64,000 nucleotides of DNA, taken from NCBI GenBank assembly GCA_965248755.1, contig OZ252149.1:2304001-2368000 (forward strand), read 5' to 3'. This DNA comes from Candidatus Latescibacterota bacterium. GTDB lineage: Bacteria > Latescibacterota > CBDEFO01. The notes below the pieces were generated by a model. The model made no database searches. It was not told the DNA's origin and was given only the letters and a program-made list of their open reading frames with translations. Shown here one piece after another: positions 4,582 through 12,631 of this stretch (position 1 is its first letter; each line of letters opens with the position of its first letter). A program made the translations under genes and the position numbers.

Positions 4582-5266
4582 GAATTGCAGGGAAGATACA
4601 AAATAAGATAGCAGATGTCAATAAGAATCGGTGGTTGTCATAGGACCATTCAGTTCTCAGTTTGGAGGTGGGTGAGAATTGATAGGCCTCGATGGGTTGC
4701 TATGCTCCTACTTAAAAGCGCTTCTAAGAAAACTAAATATCCCTCAGTAATTTTGTCCGCTACTTTTCTACCAGCTTCTACTAAATTTCTACTGGAACAA
4801 GCCGAAACACCGTGAAAAACAAAGAAACATCGTAAAAGGTGAGAGGCTGTTAGCCTAAACAAAATAAAGAGTTAGGTAACAACACGAAACAGGAGGTAAA
4901 TCACTTAACTGACAGAAGATCACAGAAAGGACCGGGAGCAGATACAGGAGAAAAGACAGAAAAGGCGTGAGGAAATGGATCGACGTCAGTCCAGTCGGAA
5001 AACTGGCGGCAGATCAAGAGCCAGCTGAAGTAGGCTTCCCCGACGGCGGCTTGGCCTCGTCCCACAATGAAGACATCGAGTTGAAGACCATTAGACGAGC
5101 TGAGGTGTGAGTGAGCATTTGTGTGACGTCAGAACGGCACGGAGCTTAAGACCATGCCGCATATCACAGTTTAGTACCAGAAGATAGGGGACATCAACCT
5201 CACGAAGAAGTAGGAATGGAGTGACCCCGCCCGTACAAAGGGAAGCGTTGGAAGGAGATGTAACAG

Positions 5267-5743
5267 ATGGAGATAAGGCGTATTGTTCTGATAATCTGTG
5301 GCCTGCTCGTTCTGGCCTCCATAGGCTGCTCGGCGGCTAAAGCGGCGGGAGAAGAGGTGTTTCGGGGAATGGGCACATTTGATCAAGAGCGATTCGGGGC
5401 GATGCAGGCCCGGATGGAGGCCATGCGGGCCTTAGATATCGATTGGCTCTGGACACGACTTTCCTTCGCGCTGGAGCTGACAGAAGCGCAGGAGCAACAG
5501 GTCAGAGAGCTGCAGAAGGATCCGTGGGAGAGGCGGGAGCAGATGATGGCTGAGGCGGAAGAAAGTGGGGACGCGGACTGGGTGGCCATCGCCAACAAAT
5601 TCAGGGATATGAAGAAGAACGTGCAGGGGAAGCTGGAGGGGATCCTCACCTAGGAACAGCAGAGGCAGCTTGCAGATCTGGAGGAGCAACAGGAGGACCG
5701 GATGAGCCAGTTCCAAAGGCGAGATAGGGTTTCTCCATTCTGA
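5267..5743 (+). pseudogene. Spy/CpxP-like (LTxxQ) helical lipoprotein with an in-frame amber codon
   Basis: Signal and lipobox (LASIGC) and an LTEAQ motif. A second motif LT*EQ is broken by TAG at 5651-5653, and the frame continues 29 codons to TGA at 5741-5743. Confidence 0.65.
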
Positions 5744-5857: not shown

Positions 5858-5890
5858 AAACAAGAGCCCCCTACGTTTCGCAGGGGGCTC
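5858..5890 (-). terminator. Intrinsic terminator closing the repeat/ncRNA array
   Basis: Minus strand GAGCCCCCUGC-GAAAC-GUAGGGGGCUC hairpin (one G-U pair) followed by UUGUUU. Confidence 0.75.
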
Positions 5891-7190
5891 ATTATACCGG
5901 ACATCCCCGTTCACACCCGTTTAGCAGTTCACCTAATCTGTAAGACATACTACCCAGGGTTATTCAGTCTTCTCAGATGTTGCGATCCAACAAGTTCAGC
6001 ACTGCTTCAAGCTCAGCACTAGTTGCTGAATAACCCTGGGTGACATACATTCTACTTACCTCACGGATTATGCAACAGAGATGTCCTTAACAGAAGGCCT
6101 TCACTTCCTAAAGCGTCATTACCATCAACGCTGTTACCCGAATACAGGACATTCCCGTTCACACCCGTTTACCAGTTCACCTAATCTGTAAGACATACTA
6201 CCCAGGGTTATTCAGTCTTCTCAGATGTTGCGATCCAACAAGTTCAGCACTACCTCAAGTTCAGCACCGCGGCAAGTTCAGCACCGCTTGCTGAATAACC
6301 CTGGGTGACATACATTCTACTTACCTCCGGATTATGCAACAGAGATGTCCTTAACAGAAGGCCTTCACTTCCTAAAGCGTCATTACCATCAACGCTGTTA
6401 CCCGAATACAGGACATTCCCGTTCACACCCGTTTACCAGTTCACCTAATCTGTAAGACATACTACCCAGGGTTATTCAGTCTTCTCAGATGTTGCGATCC
6501 AACAAGTTCAGCACTACCTCAAGTTCAGCACCGCTTGCTGAATAACCCTGGGTGACATACATTCTGGTATCCTACCCTACTACAAGCTCTACAAGCTGAT
6601 TTCTAATCTAATCCTAAACGTAGGGCGAAGAATACCTTGAGTCGATCAGGTGTCGTATCGTCGTATGCAAAACTCACAATACGACACATCAGTAGTCCCA
6701 TGGACTGGACATTCTACTTACCTCCGGATTATGAAAGCAGTTCACCTAATCTGTAAGACATACTACCCAGGGTTATTCAGTCTTCTCTGATGTTGCGATC
6801 CAACAAGTTCAGCACTGCCTCAAGTTCATCACCGCGGCAAGTGTAGCACTACCTCAAGTTCATCACCGCGTCAAGTGTAGCACTGCTTCAAGTTCAGCAC
6901 TTGTTGCTGAATAACCCTGGATGACATAGATCCAGGTATCTTACCCTACAAGTCCTACAAGCTGATTTCTAATCTAATCCTAAACGTAGGGTGAAAAATA
7001 CCTTGCGTTGATCAGGTGTCGTATCGTCGTCTTCGAAACTCGCAATACGACACCTCAGTAGACGGGTGGACTGGACATACTACTTACCTCCGGATTATGA
7101 ACCAGGAATGTCCAACGAGAAGGCCTCTACTTCCTAAAGCGTCATTACCATCAACGCTGTTACCTGATATATTGGGCCTTCACTTAGATA
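5891..7190 (-). ncRNA. Putative modular structured ncRNA array (4x hairpin A with 2/3/2/6 17-nt units, 3x module B, 2x hairpin C, 2x hairpin D, 4x GGAGGUAAGUAG linker)
   Basis: Tandem blocks start at 5899, 6147 and 6411 (periods 248 and 264 nt). Stems of 14-16 bp, compensatory and wobble changes between copies, no long ORF, and a terminator at the 3' end. Confidence 0.65.
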
Positions 7191-7270
7191 GTCACATTAA
7201 ACCGTTAAATTCTTTCAAAAAAATTCATAAAATAACATATCCACGTACTAAGTCTTGGATATCAGTTGAG

Positions 7271-7798
7271 TTACAGATAATATTGCAGACCTGCTTTCAA
7301 AGCCTCCTTTTCAAATTTCTTCGTTGCCCTGGCTATCCACGTTGCTACAGTGCCTTCAGGCACCTTCATCTCCTCAGCTATCTCTCGGTAAGAAAGTTCA
7401 CGACATCGTAGTGTTAAGACTTCTGCCTCTTTCGGTTTCAGACGGGATAGAAGAATCTCTTGAACTAACGACTTCAGCTCATCTTTTTCAAGCAACCGAT
7501 CGGGTTGGTTGTCCTCATCGTCAGCGACATTATCATCCAGTTCGCAAAATCTGCCCTTGTTACGGTAAAGGTCCTTTGCTCCGTTTACGCACGCTGTTAT
7601 AAGGTAAGCTTCAAGATTCTGGATTTCTTCCAGATTTTTCTGAAGCGCATAGCAGATAACCTTTTGCGTTACCTCTCTTGCTTCATCATCAGTACTTGTG
7701 TATCCCCTTGTTATGTGGAAGAATTTGTCGAGGAACTCTCTGTCCTTGAGTAAGTCAGAGATGGACGGGGAGCCATTAGGTAGTGTCCGTCTCACCAT
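7271..7798 (-). CDS. ECF-type (sigma-70 family) RNA polymerase sigma factor, divergent
   Basis: 175 aa from ATG 7798 after an AAGGAG RBS. Sigma2-like EAREVTQ...NLEAYLITACVNGAKDLYR and sigma4 HTH LSYREIAEEMKVPEGTVATWIARA. Confidence 0.88.
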   Translation of the reverse strand: MVRRTLPNGSPSISDLLKDREFLDKFFHITRGYTSTDDEAREVTQKVICYALQKNLEEIQNLEAYLITACVNGAKDLYRNKGRFCELDDNVADDEDNQPDRLLEKDELKSLVQEILLSRLKPKEAEVLTLRCRELSYREIAEEMKVPEGTVATWIARATKKFEKEALKAGLQYYL

Positions 7799-7976: not shown

Positions 7977-8585
7977 TTAACCTAATTCGGGATATTCTCT
8001 TCCCTCCCTAAGATCGTTTACAAATATCAGCAGATCGTGAGAATGCTCCTTCAAGTCCACAACTTGGTCGGGGAGTGTCGCCACCTGTGTATAACCTATA
8101 TCCAGGAACATCTGAATAGCCCCATGTTGTTCCACCATACACTCAGCCCTTAATCTGTCCAAGCCGGTGTGCATGGCTATTTCCGTCAACTCGCCCAAAA
8201 GCAGACCTGCTAGACCTCGGCGTCTGTAGTCAGGATGCACGACCGTCCGAACCTGTCCCGTGTGCCTCATCCAGCCCATCCTGTGATGATGCAGTGAAGC
8301 TTCCCCTATAATCTTCCTCTCAAGTTTTGCTACTAAAGGGATAACTCTACTTAGATCTACATTGGCGCACCATCCGTCAATGACAGACTCATCCGTCACA
8401 TCGTCCCTCAGGAACATCCTGTCCCTTGCCGGAATCTGGAGGAAGAATTGCATAAGTTCCTCCTTATCCCAGCTCTCCAATAACTTTATCGTAACTTCAG
8501 TACCGTCCTTCAAAGTCTCCACCTTCGGATATATATCCCCGAAGACTTCATCTAAATAGCTATCTGATAGAGTCTCCTGCAGCAT
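7977..8585 (-). CDS. GNAT family N-acetyltransferase
   Basis: 202 aa with the VHPDYRRRGLAG acetyl-CoA binding motif and an LKDGTEVTIK N-terminus; AGGAGG RBS. Confidence 0.88.
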   Translation of the reverse strand: MLQETLSDSYLDEVFGDIYPKVETLKDGTEVTIKLLESWDKEELMQFFLQIPARDRMFLRDDVTDESVIDGWCANVDLSRVIPLVAKLERKIIGEASLHHHRMGWMRHTGQVRTVVHPDYRRRGLAGLLLGELTEIAMHTGLDRLRAECMVEQHGAIQMFLDIGYTQVATLPDQVVDLKEHSHDLLIFVNDLREGREYPELG

Positions 8586-8719: not shown

Positions 8720-9082
8720 CTACTCACAGGAAACTTCTATCTCCGCCGGCTCTCCTAACATAAAAAGAGCGACGATACTGCCTGTTAAGGAACTAATCGC
8801 TGTTTGAACGTCAACAACCTTGCGCCCCATAGTCTCCACGATCACATCTTCCAGATATTGGCGGGGACCCTCAAAAAGAAGCGCATTAAACTCCCTTAGG
8901 AGATTTTGGCCCTTCTGGCTTAAGGCCAGATGTTTTTCAGCAGGAGAGAGCATCTCTTTGAGATGGACGACGATCATATCCTCCTCTATCAGGACAGTTG
9001 CTTTCCTGGGGACTATTCCCATCTGTAATTCCTGAAATTTAGTGATCTCCTCACAAATAGCATCTTTAAGATCAGCGTTCAC
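8720..9082 (-). CDS. DUF2294 / MpsC-family protein
   Basis: 120 aa paralogue of 12224-12631 (EEITKFQ...MG..P...DMIVVHLKEMLSPAE...TG). Confidence 0.8.
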   Translation of the reverse strand: MNADLKDAICEEITKFQELQMGIVPRKATVLIEEDMIVVHLKEMLSPAEKHLALSQKGQNLLREFNALLFEGPRQYLEDVIVETMGRKVVDVQTAISSLTGSIVALFMLGEPAEIEVSCE

Positions 9083-9129
9083 GGTTTGTCCCTTTCTCTA
9101 ACAATAGATGAATACTCTATGACTGCTTC

Positions 9130-9393
9130 TTATTCAACTGCTATGCACGTTATCGTCTTTGTCACACCGGCAATGCTCCTCACCTGGGATGTAATCGCTT
9201 CTCCCAAGCCATTGCTGTCATCTGCCTGAATATGAGCCATAATATCGAAAGATTCCATTAGGGTAGTAAGATCCCGTAACCGTCCTTCTGCAGGGCCGAC
9301 AAATTTTATCCCTTCTATGTCGGAGAGCTCCTCCACGACATCTTCCACACTGTCGCCCGCCACATCTATCAGCACATAAGCTCTAACAGACAC
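9130..9393 (-). CDS. Stand-alone Lrp/AsnC ligand-binding (RAM) domain protein
   Basis: GTG start after GGAGGAGG; 87 aa VRAYVLIDV...FDIMAHIQA...VRSIAGVTKTITC. Confidence 0.8.
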   Translation of the reverse strand: MSVRAYVLIDVAGDSVEDVVEELSDIEGIKFVGPAEGRLRDLTTLMESFDIMAHIQADDSNGLGEAITSQVRSIAGVTKTITCIAVE

Positions 9394-9432
9394 TATCTTA
9401 TCACCTCCTCCAAAAGATTTGTTTGTATAGCA

Positions 9433-9581
9433 CAAAAACAAAAAGCCGACGCAAAAAGACCCATATACTGGGCTCTGCGTCGGCATACTTTTCAACAAGC
9501 CATCTTTTTCAAGAGTGCTATTTAACTAATCTGCCGAATTAAAACTGCTACCAATATACCGTATTTAAATTAATATGTCAA
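9433..9581 (-). promoter_or_regulatory. Promoter plus attenuator-like leader (copy 1)
   Basis: TTGACA (9581-9576)-N17-TATATT (9558-9553). Terminator GCCGACGCA...UGCGUCGGC-UUUUU at 9484-9445. Upstream UCGGCA can pair with UGCCGA in the terminator 5' arm. Confidence 0.7.
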
Positions 9582-9850
9582 GACTTTTTTGACGAAGTGC
9601 CCCCTTGAGGGAGCATTTCCTCAAGGCGCTTGTCCAGAATGAAAAGTATGACCCTCTCGCCTGTCCTCGTGCTGATGTCAGTATGAATGCTGGTGACTTT
9701 ACATCCAGATAAGGTTACAAATTACATCCTCCAAAAGCGGACGGGAGAACTCCATAAGCTGCATCTTGATCTCTTTGATCAATCCCGATCCTTTTGGACT
9801 CTCACCCAATTTTTGTTCAGCAGGCGTCAAAGGTCCAAGGATAACTCCCG
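9578..9850 (-). pseudogene. DUF2294 paralogue, 5'-truncated and frameshifted
   Basis: Closely similar to the 3' part of 12224-12631. One extra base near 9710 gives NLIWM* instead of AHTGCKV. Confidence 0.8.
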
Positions 9851-10025
9851 CTAGACCATCTATCTGGCCGCTCTTTCTGGTTAGGTTTCTTTTCAGACTT
9901 TTCCCGAGGGCTTCTGACAGATCGTGAACAGGCGAGTCTATATGGTTAAGGTTGAAAACTTCGCCTACCAAATCTGAAGGAACTTCGAAAAAGGGCAAAA
10001 CGACGTCCCATTTTTTGGCAGTTTG

Positions 10026-11435
10026 TCATTCGAAGAAATCGTCTAACCAGCACGCCTCATCATTTAACGGAACGGTAAATATCTTTCCCACATCTTCTTC
10101 ATCTCTGCAGGAATGGTACTTAAGGATCAAATTTTCCTTTTCGTCTTGCACTATCGTGCCGAATATCTCAATCTTACCTGTATAATGCGACATCGCGTAT
10201 CTTACTGTCCTTGCCAGACCGCCTAGACCCTTCTTGGACTCCTCGAAGATTCTCAATCCTTCTGCTATCGGGACGCGGTAGTGCAAGCTCCCCTTTACGG
10301 GCCGCATCTGAAAGAGATAATACGGAGCGACCCCAGCATCTGCCAATCTCCTAAATAGCTCCCTCAGCACATCCGGATCATCGTTAATGCCTCTGTGCAA
10401 CACCGCCTGGTTGATAATGTGCGCACCTGCCTTAATGGCCTTATCTAAGCACTCCAGCGACTCCGCCGTCAGCTCCCTCGGATGATCGTAATGCGCGACT
10501 ATGTATATCCTCCTGTCCGGCAGACTATATCTCTTTATCAACTCCAGAAAACCATCGTCTAATATCCTGAAAGGATTAAACGCGGGCAGCTTTGTGCCGA
10601 GCCTTATGATCTTTATGTGGTCTACTGTACGCAACTGACTGAGAATAAAATCCAGCTTTTCGTTGACCAACATCAGAGGATCACCGCCCGTAATCAAGAC
10701 ATTATCTACCTCTCTATGTCTTCGCAAGTAGCCGAGAGTGCCTTCCCAATCGACACCTGTCTCTTGTTTTGATATAGACCCAGTAGTGAAGCGTTTTCTG
10801 AAGCAATATCTGCAGTAAGATGCGCAGACCGAAGTGGGCAAGAGCAAGACGGTATTTCTGTATTTGTGCTGCAACCCTCTTACTTGCACGTTATCTGCCT
10901 CTCCGCTGGTGTCATACTGGCCCCCTTCCCTAAGCTCATCGACTGAGGGTACGACTAATTTCTTCAGGGGATCGTCTGGATCGTGTGGATCGATGAGGTC
11001 AGCGTAGTATGGCGTAATGCCCATTTGAAACTTCCTAAGCACTATCGGTAGTTTCTCTTCTTCCTCTGGCGTCAGTGCTACATATTCTCGCAGTTTATCC
11101 ACAGTCCGTATGCTATCAATCAGTTCCTGTCTCCATCTTTCCACCTTTCGCGACGATCCCTCAGAAGCTACCTTGATGGCCCCTGGTTCCTCCATCGTCT
11201 CTCTGGATCCCGCCAGATGTAACACTTTTTCCAAAGAAGCTACAACCTTTCTGATAGGGCTGCCGAGGTCATTGCTGCTGGTCGATGAGCGCCTACTGAT
11301 AGAGTGTCTTCTTATGATATGTCGTAATTTCCTGCTCTTTCTCGGAGCCGAAGTCTTTCTTGAAGCCGAGGCTAGACCACCCTGGGGCCGCTCACCGATT
11401 TGAACACCTTCTTTTGCTTCATCTTCCCAAGTCAT
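10026..11435 (-). CDS. KamA-family radical SAM protein (lysine 2,3-aminomutase-like) with a low-complexity N-terminal extension
   Basis: CASYCRYCFRKR cluster motif, ITPYY, GLQHKY, LITGGDPL, HPRELT and PYYLFQ. Confidence 0.88.
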   Translation of the reverse strand: MTWEDEAKEGVQIGERPQGGLASASRKTSAPRKSRKLRHIIRRHSISRRSSTSSNDLGSPIRKVVASLEKVLHLAGSRETMEEPGAIKVASEGSSRKVERWRQELIDSIRTVDKLREYVALTPEEEEKLPIVLRKFQMGITPYYADLIDPHDPDDPLKKLVVPSVDELREGGQYDTSGEADNVQVRGLQHKYRNTVLLLPTSVCASYCRYCFRKRFTTGSISKQETGVDWEGTLGYLRRHREVDNVLITGGDPLMLVNEKLDFILSQLRTVDHIKIIRLGTKLPAFNPFRILDDGFLELIKRYSLPDRRIYIVAHYDHPRELTAESLECLDKAIKAGAHIINQAVLHRGINDDPDVLRELFRRLADAGVAPYYLFQMRPVKGSLHYRVPIAEGLRIFEESKKGLGGLARTVRYAMSHYTGKIEIFGTIVQDEKENLILKYHSCRDEEDVGKIFTVPLNDEACWLDDFFE

Positions 11436-11777
11436 CGTATAATCCCTTTATGTCATTTGCGCACTCTTGCTCGTAGTACCAGTCATTGTCCCTGCTTGTG
11501 TCTTAGCTAATGCTGCCTGCAGGTCCGCGTCTGTCCCCTATCAAAACGCCAAGAGTGCCATTATTGCTGGTTTATAGTTCTATGCAACAGGTACTGAACC
11601 GTCCCCTAAGATCCTGTGCTACGCGACAGCGCCTCTACGTCTTTTCGTTTTGCTGCCTGTCTCCGGTACTCTCTGACGAGGTTGCTTTGGTCGTTGATGT
11701 CTTTGCCAGCGTGACAACTCGAAGCAATTTCACCGTTGTCTGAGTTATGATCCTTTACGGCCAGGTGCTCCCGACCT

Positions 11778-12041
11778 CTATTCGATTGCTATGCACGTTA
11801 TCGTCTTTGTCACCCCAGCAATGCTCCTCACCCGGGATGTGATCGCTTCTCCCAAGTCATTGCTGTCATCTGCCTGAATATGAGCCATAATATCGAACAA
11901 TTCCATTAGGGTAGTAAGATCCCGCAACCGTCCTGCTGCAGGGCCGACAAATCTTATCCCTTATATGTCGGAGAGCTCCTCTACGACATTTTCCACACTG
12001 TCGCCCGCCACATCTATCAACACATAAGCTCTAACGGACAG
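11778..12041 (-). pseudogene. Lrp/AsnC ligand-binding domain paralogue, inactivated
   Basis: Copy of 9130-9393 with the start GTG changed to CTG and a GAA-to-TAA stop at 11961-11963. Confidence 0.85.
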
Positions 12042-12080
12042 TATCTTATCACCTCCTCGAAAAGATCTGTTTGTACAGCA

Positions 12081-12227
12081 TAAAAATAAAAGCCGACGCC
12101 ACATACCCATCTACTGGGCTCTGCGTCGGCATACTTTTCAACAAGCCATGTTTTTCAAGAGTGCTATTTAACTCGTCTGCCGAATTAAAACTGTCACTAG
12201 TATACCGTATTTAAATTAATATGTCAA
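12081..12227 (-). promoter_or_regulatory. Promoter plus attenuator-like leader (copy 2)
   Basis: TTGACA (12227-12222)-N17-TATACT (12204-12199); terminator 12130-12092 with a U-tract. Confidence 0.7.
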
Positions 12228-12631
12228 GACTTTTTTGACGAAGTGCCCCCTTGAGGGAGAATTTCCTCAAGGCGCTTGTCCAGAATGAAAAGTATGACCC
12301 TCTCGCCTGTCCTCGTGCTGATGTCAGTATGAATGCTGGTGACTTTACATCCAGTATGGGCGCAGATTATATCTTCCAAAAGTAGACGGGACGACTCCAT
12401 AAGCTGCATCTTAACCTCTTTGATCAATCCCGCTCCCTTTGGACTGTTACCCAATGTCTGTTCAGCAGGCGTAAGTGTTTCCTTCAGACGCACTAAGATC
12501 ATATCTTCGATAATATATGTCTTTGATTCTTTAGGACCTCTGCCCATGTGTTCTTTTTGAAATTTGATGATAGCCTTGCTTATCTCATCCTCCATCTGTC
12601 CCTTGGTCAAGTTGGCCATATCTGTCCTCAT
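12224..12631 (-). CDS. DUF2294 / MpsC-family protein (Na+-translocating system-associated)
   Basis: TKGQMEDEISKAIIKFQKEHMGRGPKESKTYIIEDMILVRL...LTPAE...HTDISTRTGERVILF is characteristic of the family. Confidence 0.88.
   Translation of the reverse strand: MRTDMANLTKGQMEDEISKAIIKFQKEHMGRGPKESKTYIIEDMILVRLKETLTPAEQTLGNSPKGAGLIKEVKMQLMESSRLLLEDIICAHTGCKVTSIHTDISTRTGERVILFILDKRLEEILPQGGTSSKKS

What the first reader, a model, noticed from the sequence alone, without database searches (positions are those of the whole stretch)
5858..7798. Orphan ECF sigma factor followed by a ~1.3 kb modular structured non-coding array: candidate new sigma/RNA system
Seen: downstream of the ECF gene (7271-7798, -) there is no anti-sigma ORF. 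After an AT-rich spacer, an array of reused modules runs on the minus strand in the order B-E-D-C-A6-F-E-D-C-A2-F/G-B-E-A3-F/G-B-E-A2-F/G and ends at a GC-rich terminator with a U-tract (5858-5890). Hairpin A has a 14-16 bp perfect stem (ACCCAGGGTTATTCAG/CTGAATAACCCTGGGT at 5952-6041, 6200-6306, 6464-6553 and 6767-6920). C is at 6566-6636 and 6934-7003, D at 6650-6687 and 7014-7055, and the B core at about 6112, 6376 and 7138. Established: most ECFs are co-encoded with a protein anti-sigma, and RNAs are known to act on RNA polymerase holoenzyme (6S RNA; RNA-guided dCas12f-sigmaE systems). No Cas or Nop-domain gene is in this window. Inference: the array is a long or processed ncRNA linked to this sigma, as its transcriptional output, an RNA anti-sigma/decoy or a guide/scaffold. 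An alternative is a DNA array of sigma-binding sites.
Basis: partly seen in the sequence, partly recalled or inferred. Interest (0 to 1): 0.92.

Follow-up and report, generated by a model that had tools for sequence, protein, structure and literature searches.

The report
Expandable folded RNA behind sigma gene
Behind a rare stress-type sigma factor gene lies an uncatalogued, folded RNA gene of about 490 bases that has been copied and reshuffled into arrays of different length; it appears to be expressed, but a sister bacterium lost the sigma gene and kept the RNA, so the proposed partnership with the sigma factor is unproven.

Summary
The array is real; module order and coordinates are as reported. 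It is one ~490-nt unit (B-E-D-C-A-F-G-terminator) amplified by partial duplications, with a nested 17-nt repeat (1-8 copies in 10 of 10 A loops). Three arrays, each with a different order, occur in 2 of 168 phylum genomes; a further strain has one unit. There is no Rfam match. In two metatranscriptomes 6 of 7 laid contigs fall in the array and none on the sigma gene (contigs only, no strand). The sigma link is weak: sister genome G001 lost GNAT-ECF by an IS1182-adjacent deletion yet keeps a three-unit array, and one RNA contig matches G001's allele exactly. No Cas12f/TnpB or Nop protein, no guide-like matches, no GGA enrichment, no significant covariation. Loci of four distant subfamily ECFs were unreachable, so conserved linkage is untested. 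Best reading: a new genus-restricted structured ncRNA, probably a multivalent protein-binding RNA co-transcribed with the ECF. An RNA anti-sigma remains possible (about 0.12).

The parts
7977..8585 (-). GNAT acetyltransferase gene, directly upstream of the ECF gene; co-duplicated and co-deleted with it
7271..7798 (-). 175-aa ECF sigma factor of a rare subfamily; sigma-4 clear, sigma-2 divergent; no anti-sigma ORF next to it
   Evidence: pN 0.033 vs pS 0.098 against its paralog
7182..7270 (-). AT-rich leader/promoter region with no terminator-like site; G001 keeps only 7201 onward, after an IS1182 end
7104..7181 (-). Likely 5' end (about 7181) and first B domain, opening with a 7-bp stem
   Evidence: X17 contig aligns from 7181 with 3 unmatched letters (weak); fold
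7058..7103 (-). E module 1: SD-like site, AUG and 7-codon micro-ORF with a hypervariable 6-nt spot
7010..7057 (-). D hairpin 1
   Evidence: z -5.0
6930..7005 (-). C hairpin 1
   Evidence: z -3.0
6765..6920 (-). A hairpin 1: 14-bp perfect stem around six 17-nt units and a small inner hairpin
6554..6764 (-). F-E-D-C, second copy (F-E junction lacks G-B)
6464..6553 (-). A hairpin 2: 16-bp perfect stem, two 17-nt units
   Evidence: z -5.4
6307..6463 (-). F-G-B-E (E-A junction lacks D-C)
6200..6306 (-). A hairpin 3: 16-bp stem, three 17-nt units
6042..6199 (-). F-G-B-E, near-identical repeat of 6307-6463 (264-nt period)
5952..6041 (-). A hairpin 4: 16-bp stem, two 17-nt units
5891..5951 (-). Last F-G
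5858..5890 (-). Intrinsic-terminator-like hairpin with U-rich tail, present at the end of 3 of 3 arrays

Best explanation
A genus-restricted, structured non-coding RNA gene. Its basic unit is about 490 nt, from about 7181 through B-E-D-C-A-F-G to an intrinsic terminator (shown: unit composition; inferred: ends and strand). The unit has been amplified in place by partial tandem duplications and internal deletions at short shared words, and by slippage of a 17-nt repeat inside the A loop (shown: three different orders, 1-4 A modules, 1-8 17-mers; inferred: mechanism). Because each hairpin folds locally, copies can be added without spoiling the others. The RNA most likely works as a multivalent binding platform (sponge or scaffold) for a cellular protein, with valency set by copy number (inferred). 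In G000 it is probably co-transcribed with, or transcribed by, the upstream GNAT-ECF unit, so it is an output or 3' extension of that operon, but it does not depend on this sigma: the sister lineage deleted the sigma gene and appears to express the RNA from an IS-supplied sigma-70-like hybrid promoter (inferred).
For: Single-unit form in the dominant strain of run X5, one unitig from 7187 across a 6852-6004 join. Orders differ in 3 of 3 arrays; 10 of 10 A-loop tracts are 17n+1 long. A natural full unit folds at z -5.6. RNA runs of two studies: 5 of 6 laid contigs of X10 and 1 of 1 of X17 lie in the array, none on ECF, GNAT or the downstream gene; the X17 contig (depth 34) includes the single-copy leader. 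Its 4 differences from the window are the 4 by which G001's first unit differs. G001: IS1182 replaces window 8885-7202, no close ECF or GNAT elsewhere; the same break at 8886 shows in X5's dominant strain. Sigma-70-like 9/12 match at the IS junction, 5 nt before the base equal to 7181. No terminator-like site between the ECF stop and the array.
Against: RNA evidence is from contigs only: no strand, ends or level; a filter drops records; repeats inflate depth; DNA carry-over is not formally excluded. Covariation is not significant (130 of 500 shuffles reach it). The RNA diverges between G000 and G001 by 10/419 = 0.024, the same as two control flanks (4/158, 8/341) and only about half the pooled synonymous rate (81.5/1739 = 0.047). 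Folding z-scores do not favour a strand (-5.6 vs -6.5). No binding partner was identified. The promoter match is weak (5 found vs 2.4 expected). Whether the strains behind X10 and X17 lack the ECF is inferred from alleles, not seen.
Confidence: 0.48

Rival explanations
1. The RNA is a dedicated partner of this ECF: an RNA anti-sigma or decoy that binds the sigma or its holoenzyme and replaces a protein anti-sigma, giving negative feedback.
For: It starts 90 nt after the ECF stop; no anti-sigma ORF adjoins; 2 of 3 ECF copies in G000 carry an array, and the third is cut at its last codon by a duplication junction; ECF and RNA share a very narrow range; sigma-2 is divergent; a minor X5 strain also has the ECF ending at the leader.
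Against: G001 and the dominant X5 strain lost the ECF but keep the RNA, with 3 and 1 A modules; the expressed allele is G001's. The adjacency is a single event. ECF groups without any recognised regulator are known (10.1101/2019.12.11.873521, passages), so lack of an anti-sigma is not diagnostic. The deletion may be recent, so this weakens but does not refute.
Confidence: 0.12
2. A polycistronic precursor cut (for example by RNase III in the 16-bp A stems) into separate small RNAs that base-pair with mRNAs.
For: Self-contained hairpin domains and long perfect stems; an RNase III gene is in the genome; a hypervariable 6-nt spot could be a seed.
Against: No match of 16 nt or more to the rest of the genome (0 vs 0.95 expected; 14-mers 12 vs 14.8), though short seeds would escape this test. 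An X10 contig runs continuously across A-F-G-B-E-D.
Confidence: 0.15
3. A transcribed but largely neutral repeat tract: read-through RNA from a locus prone to local duplication.
For: No excess conservation over flanks; no covariation; 169 clusters of near repeats in the genome and 87-, 178- and 2,342-bp duplications next to the second array; found in one genus only.
Against: Four strongly folding domains and a terminator in 450-490 nt; RNA contigs in two studies where neighbouring genes gave almost none; duplication junctions keep hairpins whole in 3 of 3 arrays.
Confidence: 0.1
4. A messenger for micro-peptides: each E module is a ribosome-binding site with a 7-codon ORF whose codons 5-6 vary.
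For: 10 of 10 E modules have an SD-like site 7 nt before AUG; 7 of 8 E-D copies give a 7-residue peptide; 5 of the 6 columns of codons 5-6 vary.
Against: The copies share descent, so 10 of 10 is not independent. Changes are non-synonymous, one copy lost the stop, frames entering A are broken by 17-nt units, and the first AUG is predicted paired (unpaired probability 0.07).
Confidence: 0.08
5. A DNA array of ECF promoters or sigma-binding sites.
For: The 17-mer ends in a GAAC-containing word like an ECF -35 box (recalled), and 5 of 7 genome-wide copies of one -35/-10-like pair with a 14-nt gap lie in the arrays.
Against: That gap is 2 nt shorter than the recalled sigma-E spacing and the copies share descent; only 2 such pairs lie elsewhere in the genome; a word pair shared by the ECF and array leaders is not enriched between genes (0.255 vs 0.25); long hairpins, a terminator and RNA contigs are unexplained by a DNA role.
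Confidence: 0.05

Closest known systems
Abundant RNAP-associated RNAs: 6S, Ms1, CoRP (PMC11077062; abstract and Discussion read)
   Same: Structured, apparently abundant ncRNA near the transcription machinery; the paper expects further lineage-specific classes.
   Different: Those bind core RNAP or the primary-sigma holoenzyme and are single genes; none described there is a modular array or an ECF partner. No RF00013 match here; binding untested.
dCas12f-sigmaE RNA-guided transcription (10.1101/2025.06.10.658865; passages read)
   Same: ECF gene with neighbouring non-coding RNA.
   Different: No Cas12f/TnpB domain in the genome, no variable guides with genomic targets.
CsrB/RsmZ-type sponge RNAs (recalled)
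   Same: Repeated hairpin modules giving many binding sites; CsrA is encoded in the genome. This is what the RNA most likely works like.
   Different: GGA is not enriched (25 vs 28.4 expected) and csrA sits in a flagellar fliW-type locus (label recalled).
Large ornate ncRNAs ROOL, GOLLD, OLE (PMC12286853; search listing and start of abstract only)
   Same: Several hundred nt, strongly folded, function unknown.
   Different: No Rfam match; simple serial hairpins rather than an ornate covarying fold; copy-variable modules; one genus only.
BIME/REP mosaic repeats (recalled)
   Same: Mosaic of reused palindromic units and linkers.
   Different: Only two loci in the genome, units far longer, own terminator, seen in RNA libraries.

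Membership tests
ECF (group 4) sigma factor | [quoted passage not shown] | tested here: met
   Sigma-4 Pfam E 4e-12; no sigma-2 Pfam hit for the window protein but weak hits in 3 of 4 subfamily relatives; best structural matches are ECF sigmas
ECF with protein anti-sigma | adjacent anti-sigma gene or C-terminal extension | tested here: not met
   No adjoining ORF; no longer form among 8,000 scored candidates (weak)
dCas12f-sigmaE system | dCas12f/TnpB-family gene | tested here: not met
   0 matches to PF07282 in G000; control rings in 8 of 14
dCas12f-sigmaE system | variable guide matching a genomic target | tested here: not met
   0 matches of 16 nt or more outside the arrays
TIGR-Tas / C/D-box guide arrays | Nop-domain protein and fixed-period repeats with variable spacers | tested here: not met
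   0 matches to PF01798 (the model may miss divergent Tas proteins); C/D snoRNA hits far below cut-off; no variable spacers
6S RNA | RF00013 match; one long hairpin with central bubble | tested here: not met
   No match in the array or genome (control rings in only 5 of 14); serial hairpins instead
6S/Ms1/CoRP class | binds RNA polymerase or sigma | not testable with these tools
   needs RIP-seq or EMSA
CsrB/RsmZ sponge | many GGA motifs in loops | tested here: not met
   GGA at or below expectation in 3 of 3 arrays
REP/BIME/MITE | dispersed genome-wide | tested here: not met
   35 of 44 outside blastn rows lie in the second array, the other 9 have E 0.46 or worse; all 8 and 10 covariance-model hits lie in the three arrays
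Structured ncRNA | covariation | tested here: inconclusive
   1 double change in 31 pairs, 130 of 500 shuffles as high; copies 94% identical
Structured ncRNA | transcribed as a defined RNA | tested here: inconclusive
   6 of 7 RNA contigs in the array; contigs give no strand or ends
Sigma-linked RNA system | array conserved behind distant homologues of the sigma | tested here: inconclusive
   Loci of P0156, P0002, P0003, P0004 not recovered; no module hit with E below 0.26 in 50 loci, mostly generic ECF neighbourhoods

The most novel reading that the evidence does not exclude
The first RNA anti-sigma factor for an ECF: a copy-variable array of RNA domains, made from the sigma's own operon, that binds and titrates this divergent sigma or its holoenzyme in place of a protein anti-sigma, with array length tuning the threshold; the ECF-less lineage would be a recent orphan of the system.
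Probability: 0.12. Interest if true: 0.9.

Novelty: new variant of a known kind. Interest (0 to 1): 0.5.

Why it matters
It is an uncatalogued bacterial RNA whose architecture changes between close relatives at two nested scales (whole domains and a 17-nt repeat), which gives a natural series for asking how RNA valency is tuned. If it binds the neighbouring ECF, it would add RNA to the known ways of controlling ECF sigma factors. The sister lineage that lost the sigma but kept the RNA is a ready natural control. If it is only a genus-specific ncRNA, it is still a new family, but of narrower reach.

Tried and rejected
Assembly artefact: rejected. Rfam family: best hit mir-2041 at 28 bits against a cut-off of 70; nothing at gathering level in three loci. 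Recurrent 5-mer at module junctions as a processing site or single-stranded -10 mimic: 4 copies in a 431-nt unit, but some 5-mer reaches 4 or more in 702 of 1000 shuffles, so rejected as chance. Shared ECF promoter upstream of the sigma and the array: not enriched between genes; lead only. Integron attC: by inspection the recalled core sites are in the wrong order and junctions do not fall at them. tRNA/tmRNA/RNase P identity: tmRNA and RNase P lie elsewhere; no tRNA in the second locus. Substitute for 6S: no 6S model hit, but the model is insensitive and a hairpin candidate lies after zapA. Homologues in phages, plasmids and viral contigs: none; 9 viral matches to a bare D-stem pattern failed both covariance models. 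ESM Atlas gave only generic ECF clusters. Parts without cover are not taken as absence.

Full report
OBSERVATION. The description is accurate. The ORF at 7271-7798 (-) encodes 175 aa with a clear sigma-4 domain and no Pfam sigma-2 hit; its model (mean pLDDT 83) matches ECF sigma factors best. No ORF of 60 aa or more lies on the minus strand between it and 5915. The repeat finder gives the four A stems, the D stems and the B cores at the stated places, and a script parses the order as B-E-D-C-A6-F-E-D-C-A2-F-G-B-E-A3-F-G-B-E-A2-F-G-terminator. D, A, C and G+terminator fold beyond shuffles (z -5.0, -5.4, -3.0, -4.3); B does not (z -0.7, -0.45). Rfam has no match at family cut-off.

THE BASIC UNIT. 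The genome holds three ECF copies at 93% identity. One, at G000:2458538, is followed by a second array, ordered B-E-D-C-A3-F-E-D-C-A8-F-E-D-C-A4-F-G-T; the other is cut at its last codon by a duplication junction and has no array. Both lie in a lower-GC island that begins with recombinase- and primase-like genes (labels by inspection). Outside the two arrays the modules do not occur: 35 of 44 outside blastn rows are in the second array and the other 9 have E of 0.46 or worse. The one other genome of the genus, G001, has the orthologous array at 94% identity, ordered B-E-D-C-A6-F-E-D-C-A1-F-G-B-E-D-C-A2-F-G-T. In run X5 the dominant strain (depth about 14) gives one unitig from 7187 that joins 6852 to 6004 and runs on through the terminator, that is, a single unit. 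So the gene is one unit of about 490 nt, B-E-D-C-A-F-G-T, and the arrays are partial tandem duplications with internal deletions; the junctions fall on short shared words (mechanism inferred). In 10 of 10 A loops the inner tract is 17n+1 long, n = 1 to 8, as expected of a slipping repeat. A natural full unit of G001 folds at z -5.6, its reverse complement at -6.5, so folding does not give the strand; the strand rests on the terminator, the G-rich composition and the gene order.

RANGE. DNA search: 2 of 168 phylum genomes. Covariance models of E-D-C and A-F: 2 of 151 each, all hits in the three arrays. Nothing in phage, plasmid or viral collections. The sigma is equally rare: 1 of 168 genomes at E 1e-15. 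Four distant relatives form a small subfamily (P0156, P0002, P0003, P0004; 34-42% identity), each a singleton on a short metagenomic contig. Earlier notes on this genome call the organism Latescibacterota (not checked here).

EXPRESSION. Of 18 runs listed, 3 are RNA; I laid 4 runs, 2 of them RNA. In X10 (sponge metatranscriptome) 5 of 6 laid contigs lie in the array at depth 7-12, and one lies at 9131-9200 at depth 2.6. In X17 (marine metatranscriptome, another study) the one laid contig covers 7030-7181 at depth 34 and includes the single-copy leader. Neither has a contig on the ECF, the GNAT or the downstream gene. One X10 contig runs across A-F-G-B-E-D in G001's order. The X17 contig aligns from 7181 with 3 unmatched letters, where a 7-bp stem begins: a weak hint of the 5' end. 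Limits: these are contigs, without strand, ends or level; a filter drops records; repeats add depth; DNA carry-over is unlikely given empty flanks but not excluded.

THE SIGMA LINK. In G001 an IS1182-type element replaces window 8885-7202, removing half of an MpsC gene, the GNAT, the ECF and most of the leader. G001 (96% complete) has no close ECF or GNAT elsewhere. X5's dominant strain shows a break at the same base, 8886, while a minor strain (depth 2.8) carries GNAT-ECF down to 7184. The 4 differences between the X17 contig and the window are exactly the 4 of G001's first unit. At the IS junction the IS end supplies a -35-like hexamer, and a one-base insertion gives a -10-like hexamer 16 nt on, 5 nt before the base equal to 7181 (9 of 12 matches, 5 sites found against 2.4 expected, so weak). 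The simplest reading is that an ECF-less lineage keeps the RNA, varies its copy number (3 and 1 A modules) and expresses it. That the expressing strains lack the ECF is inferred from alleles. For the link: the RNA starts 90 nt after the ECF stop with no terminator-like site between, both travel together onto the island, and the ECF is under purifying selection (pN 0.033, pS 0.098). But the adjacency is one event, the deletion may be recent, and ECF groups with no recognised regulator are known (10.1101/2019.12.11.873521, passages; its supplementary group table, not seen, may bear on where this ECF belongs).

MECHANISM TESTS. No Cas12f/TnpB or Nop domain in the genome. No match of 16 nt or more between a non-redundant unit and the rest of the genome (0 against 0.95). 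CsrA is present but GGA is not enriched in any of 3 arrays. A 5-mer that recurs at junctions is within chance. ECF-promoter-like pairs have no consistent spacing and no enrichment between genes. Every E module has an SD-like site 7 nt before an AUG, and 7 of 8 E-D copies give a 7-residue peptide whose codons 5-6 are the most variable spot of the alignment; the copies share descent and the first AUG is predicted paired. An RNase III gene exists, and the 16-bp stems could be processing stalks. Against my own reading: covariation is not significant (130 of 500 shuffles), and divergence from G001 (10/419) equals that of two control flanks (4/158, 8/341) and is about half the synonymous rate (81.5/1739). 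The genome has 169 clusters of near repeats, so local duplication is common here.

HOW IT MOST LIKELY WORKS. Shown: a folded, terminator-ended unit, amplified at two scales, confined to one genus, present in RNA libraries, and separable from the sigma gene. Inferred: a minus-strand RNA from about 7181, co-transcribed with or driven by the GNAT-ECF unit in G000, acting as a multivalent protein-binding RNA whose valency follows copy number (0.48). Rivals: precursor of base-pairing small RNAs (0.15), RNA anti-sigma (0.12), neutral transcribed tract (0.10), micro-peptide messenger (0.08), DNA site array (0.05).

COMPARISON. It works most like a sponge of the CsrB kind (recalled) but fails the GGA test. 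It is not a member of the dCas12f-sigmaE system (10.1101/2025.06.10.658865, passages), of 6S/Ms1/CoRP (PMC11077062, abstract and Discussion, which describe partners of core RNAP or primary sigma only), of ROOL/GOLLD/OLE (PMC12286853, listing and start of abstract) or of dispersed REP/BIME repeats. Four searches of the held library listed no paper whose title or abstract start describes an RNA anti-sigma for an ECF or such an array; most subscription papers are not in that library, and no supplements were read. An earlier unchecked note of this scan (e1-7417642) reports three folded RNA units behind a different sigma gene in another genome; it is a lead that sigma-adjacent RNA arrays may recur, not support.

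VERDICT. Observation confirmed; interpretation partly supported. A new, genus-restricted, copy-variable structured RNA; the sigma partnership is possible but weakened. Novelty: new variant of a known kind. Interest 0.5; 0.9 if the RNA proves to be an anti-sigma (probability about 0.12).

Noticed in passing
window 9435-9558 and 12078-12204; L001 about 4944-5067 and 5122-5245: A 124-nt element with a strong GC hairpin follows MpsC/DUF2294 genes in 4 full copies genome-wide; no Rfam match. Terminator or leader RNA.
   Followed up: partly
window 5267-5653 (+): Convergent gene for a secreted-looking helical protein without Pfam hit, with an LTxxQ-like motif as in Spy/CpxP (recalled). The window copy stops early at a TAG; G001 has a 143-aa form with a 45-nt deletion, also seen in run X5.
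   Followed up: partly
L001 (G000:2440000-2461000): Island with recombinase- and primase-like genes carrying MpsC, a canonical 223-aa ECF whose downstream partner is cut off after a few codons, and duplicated Lrp-MpsC-GNAT-ECF blocks; not found in G001.
   Followed up: partly
L001 7462-7636 and 14162-14336: Both island GNAT copies carry an in-frame 87-bp tandem duplication absent from the window copy.
   Followed up: no
window 7670-7690 (-), sigma-2 helix: The window ECF has Arg and Lys where relatives have acidic residues in the helix that contacts RNA polymerase (role recalled). With a GNAT gene just upstream, control by acetylation is an untested idea.
   Followed up: no
L072 1780-2310: A 550-nt spacer after zapA holds a closed hairpin (2172-2290, z -1.95), a candidate for a divergent 6S RNA that the Rfam model misses.
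   Followed up: partly
window 8720-12631 (-): Cluster of three MpsC/DUF2294 genes, stand-alone Lrp/AsnC ligand-domain genes and a radical SAM gene, co-oriented with GNAT-ECF-array.
   Followed up: no
window 7025-7040, 6665-6675 and A inner loops: The D loop comes in two alleles, each with a short self-complementary word, and the A inner loop has one too; possible kissing or dimer contacts, not tested.
   Followed up: no
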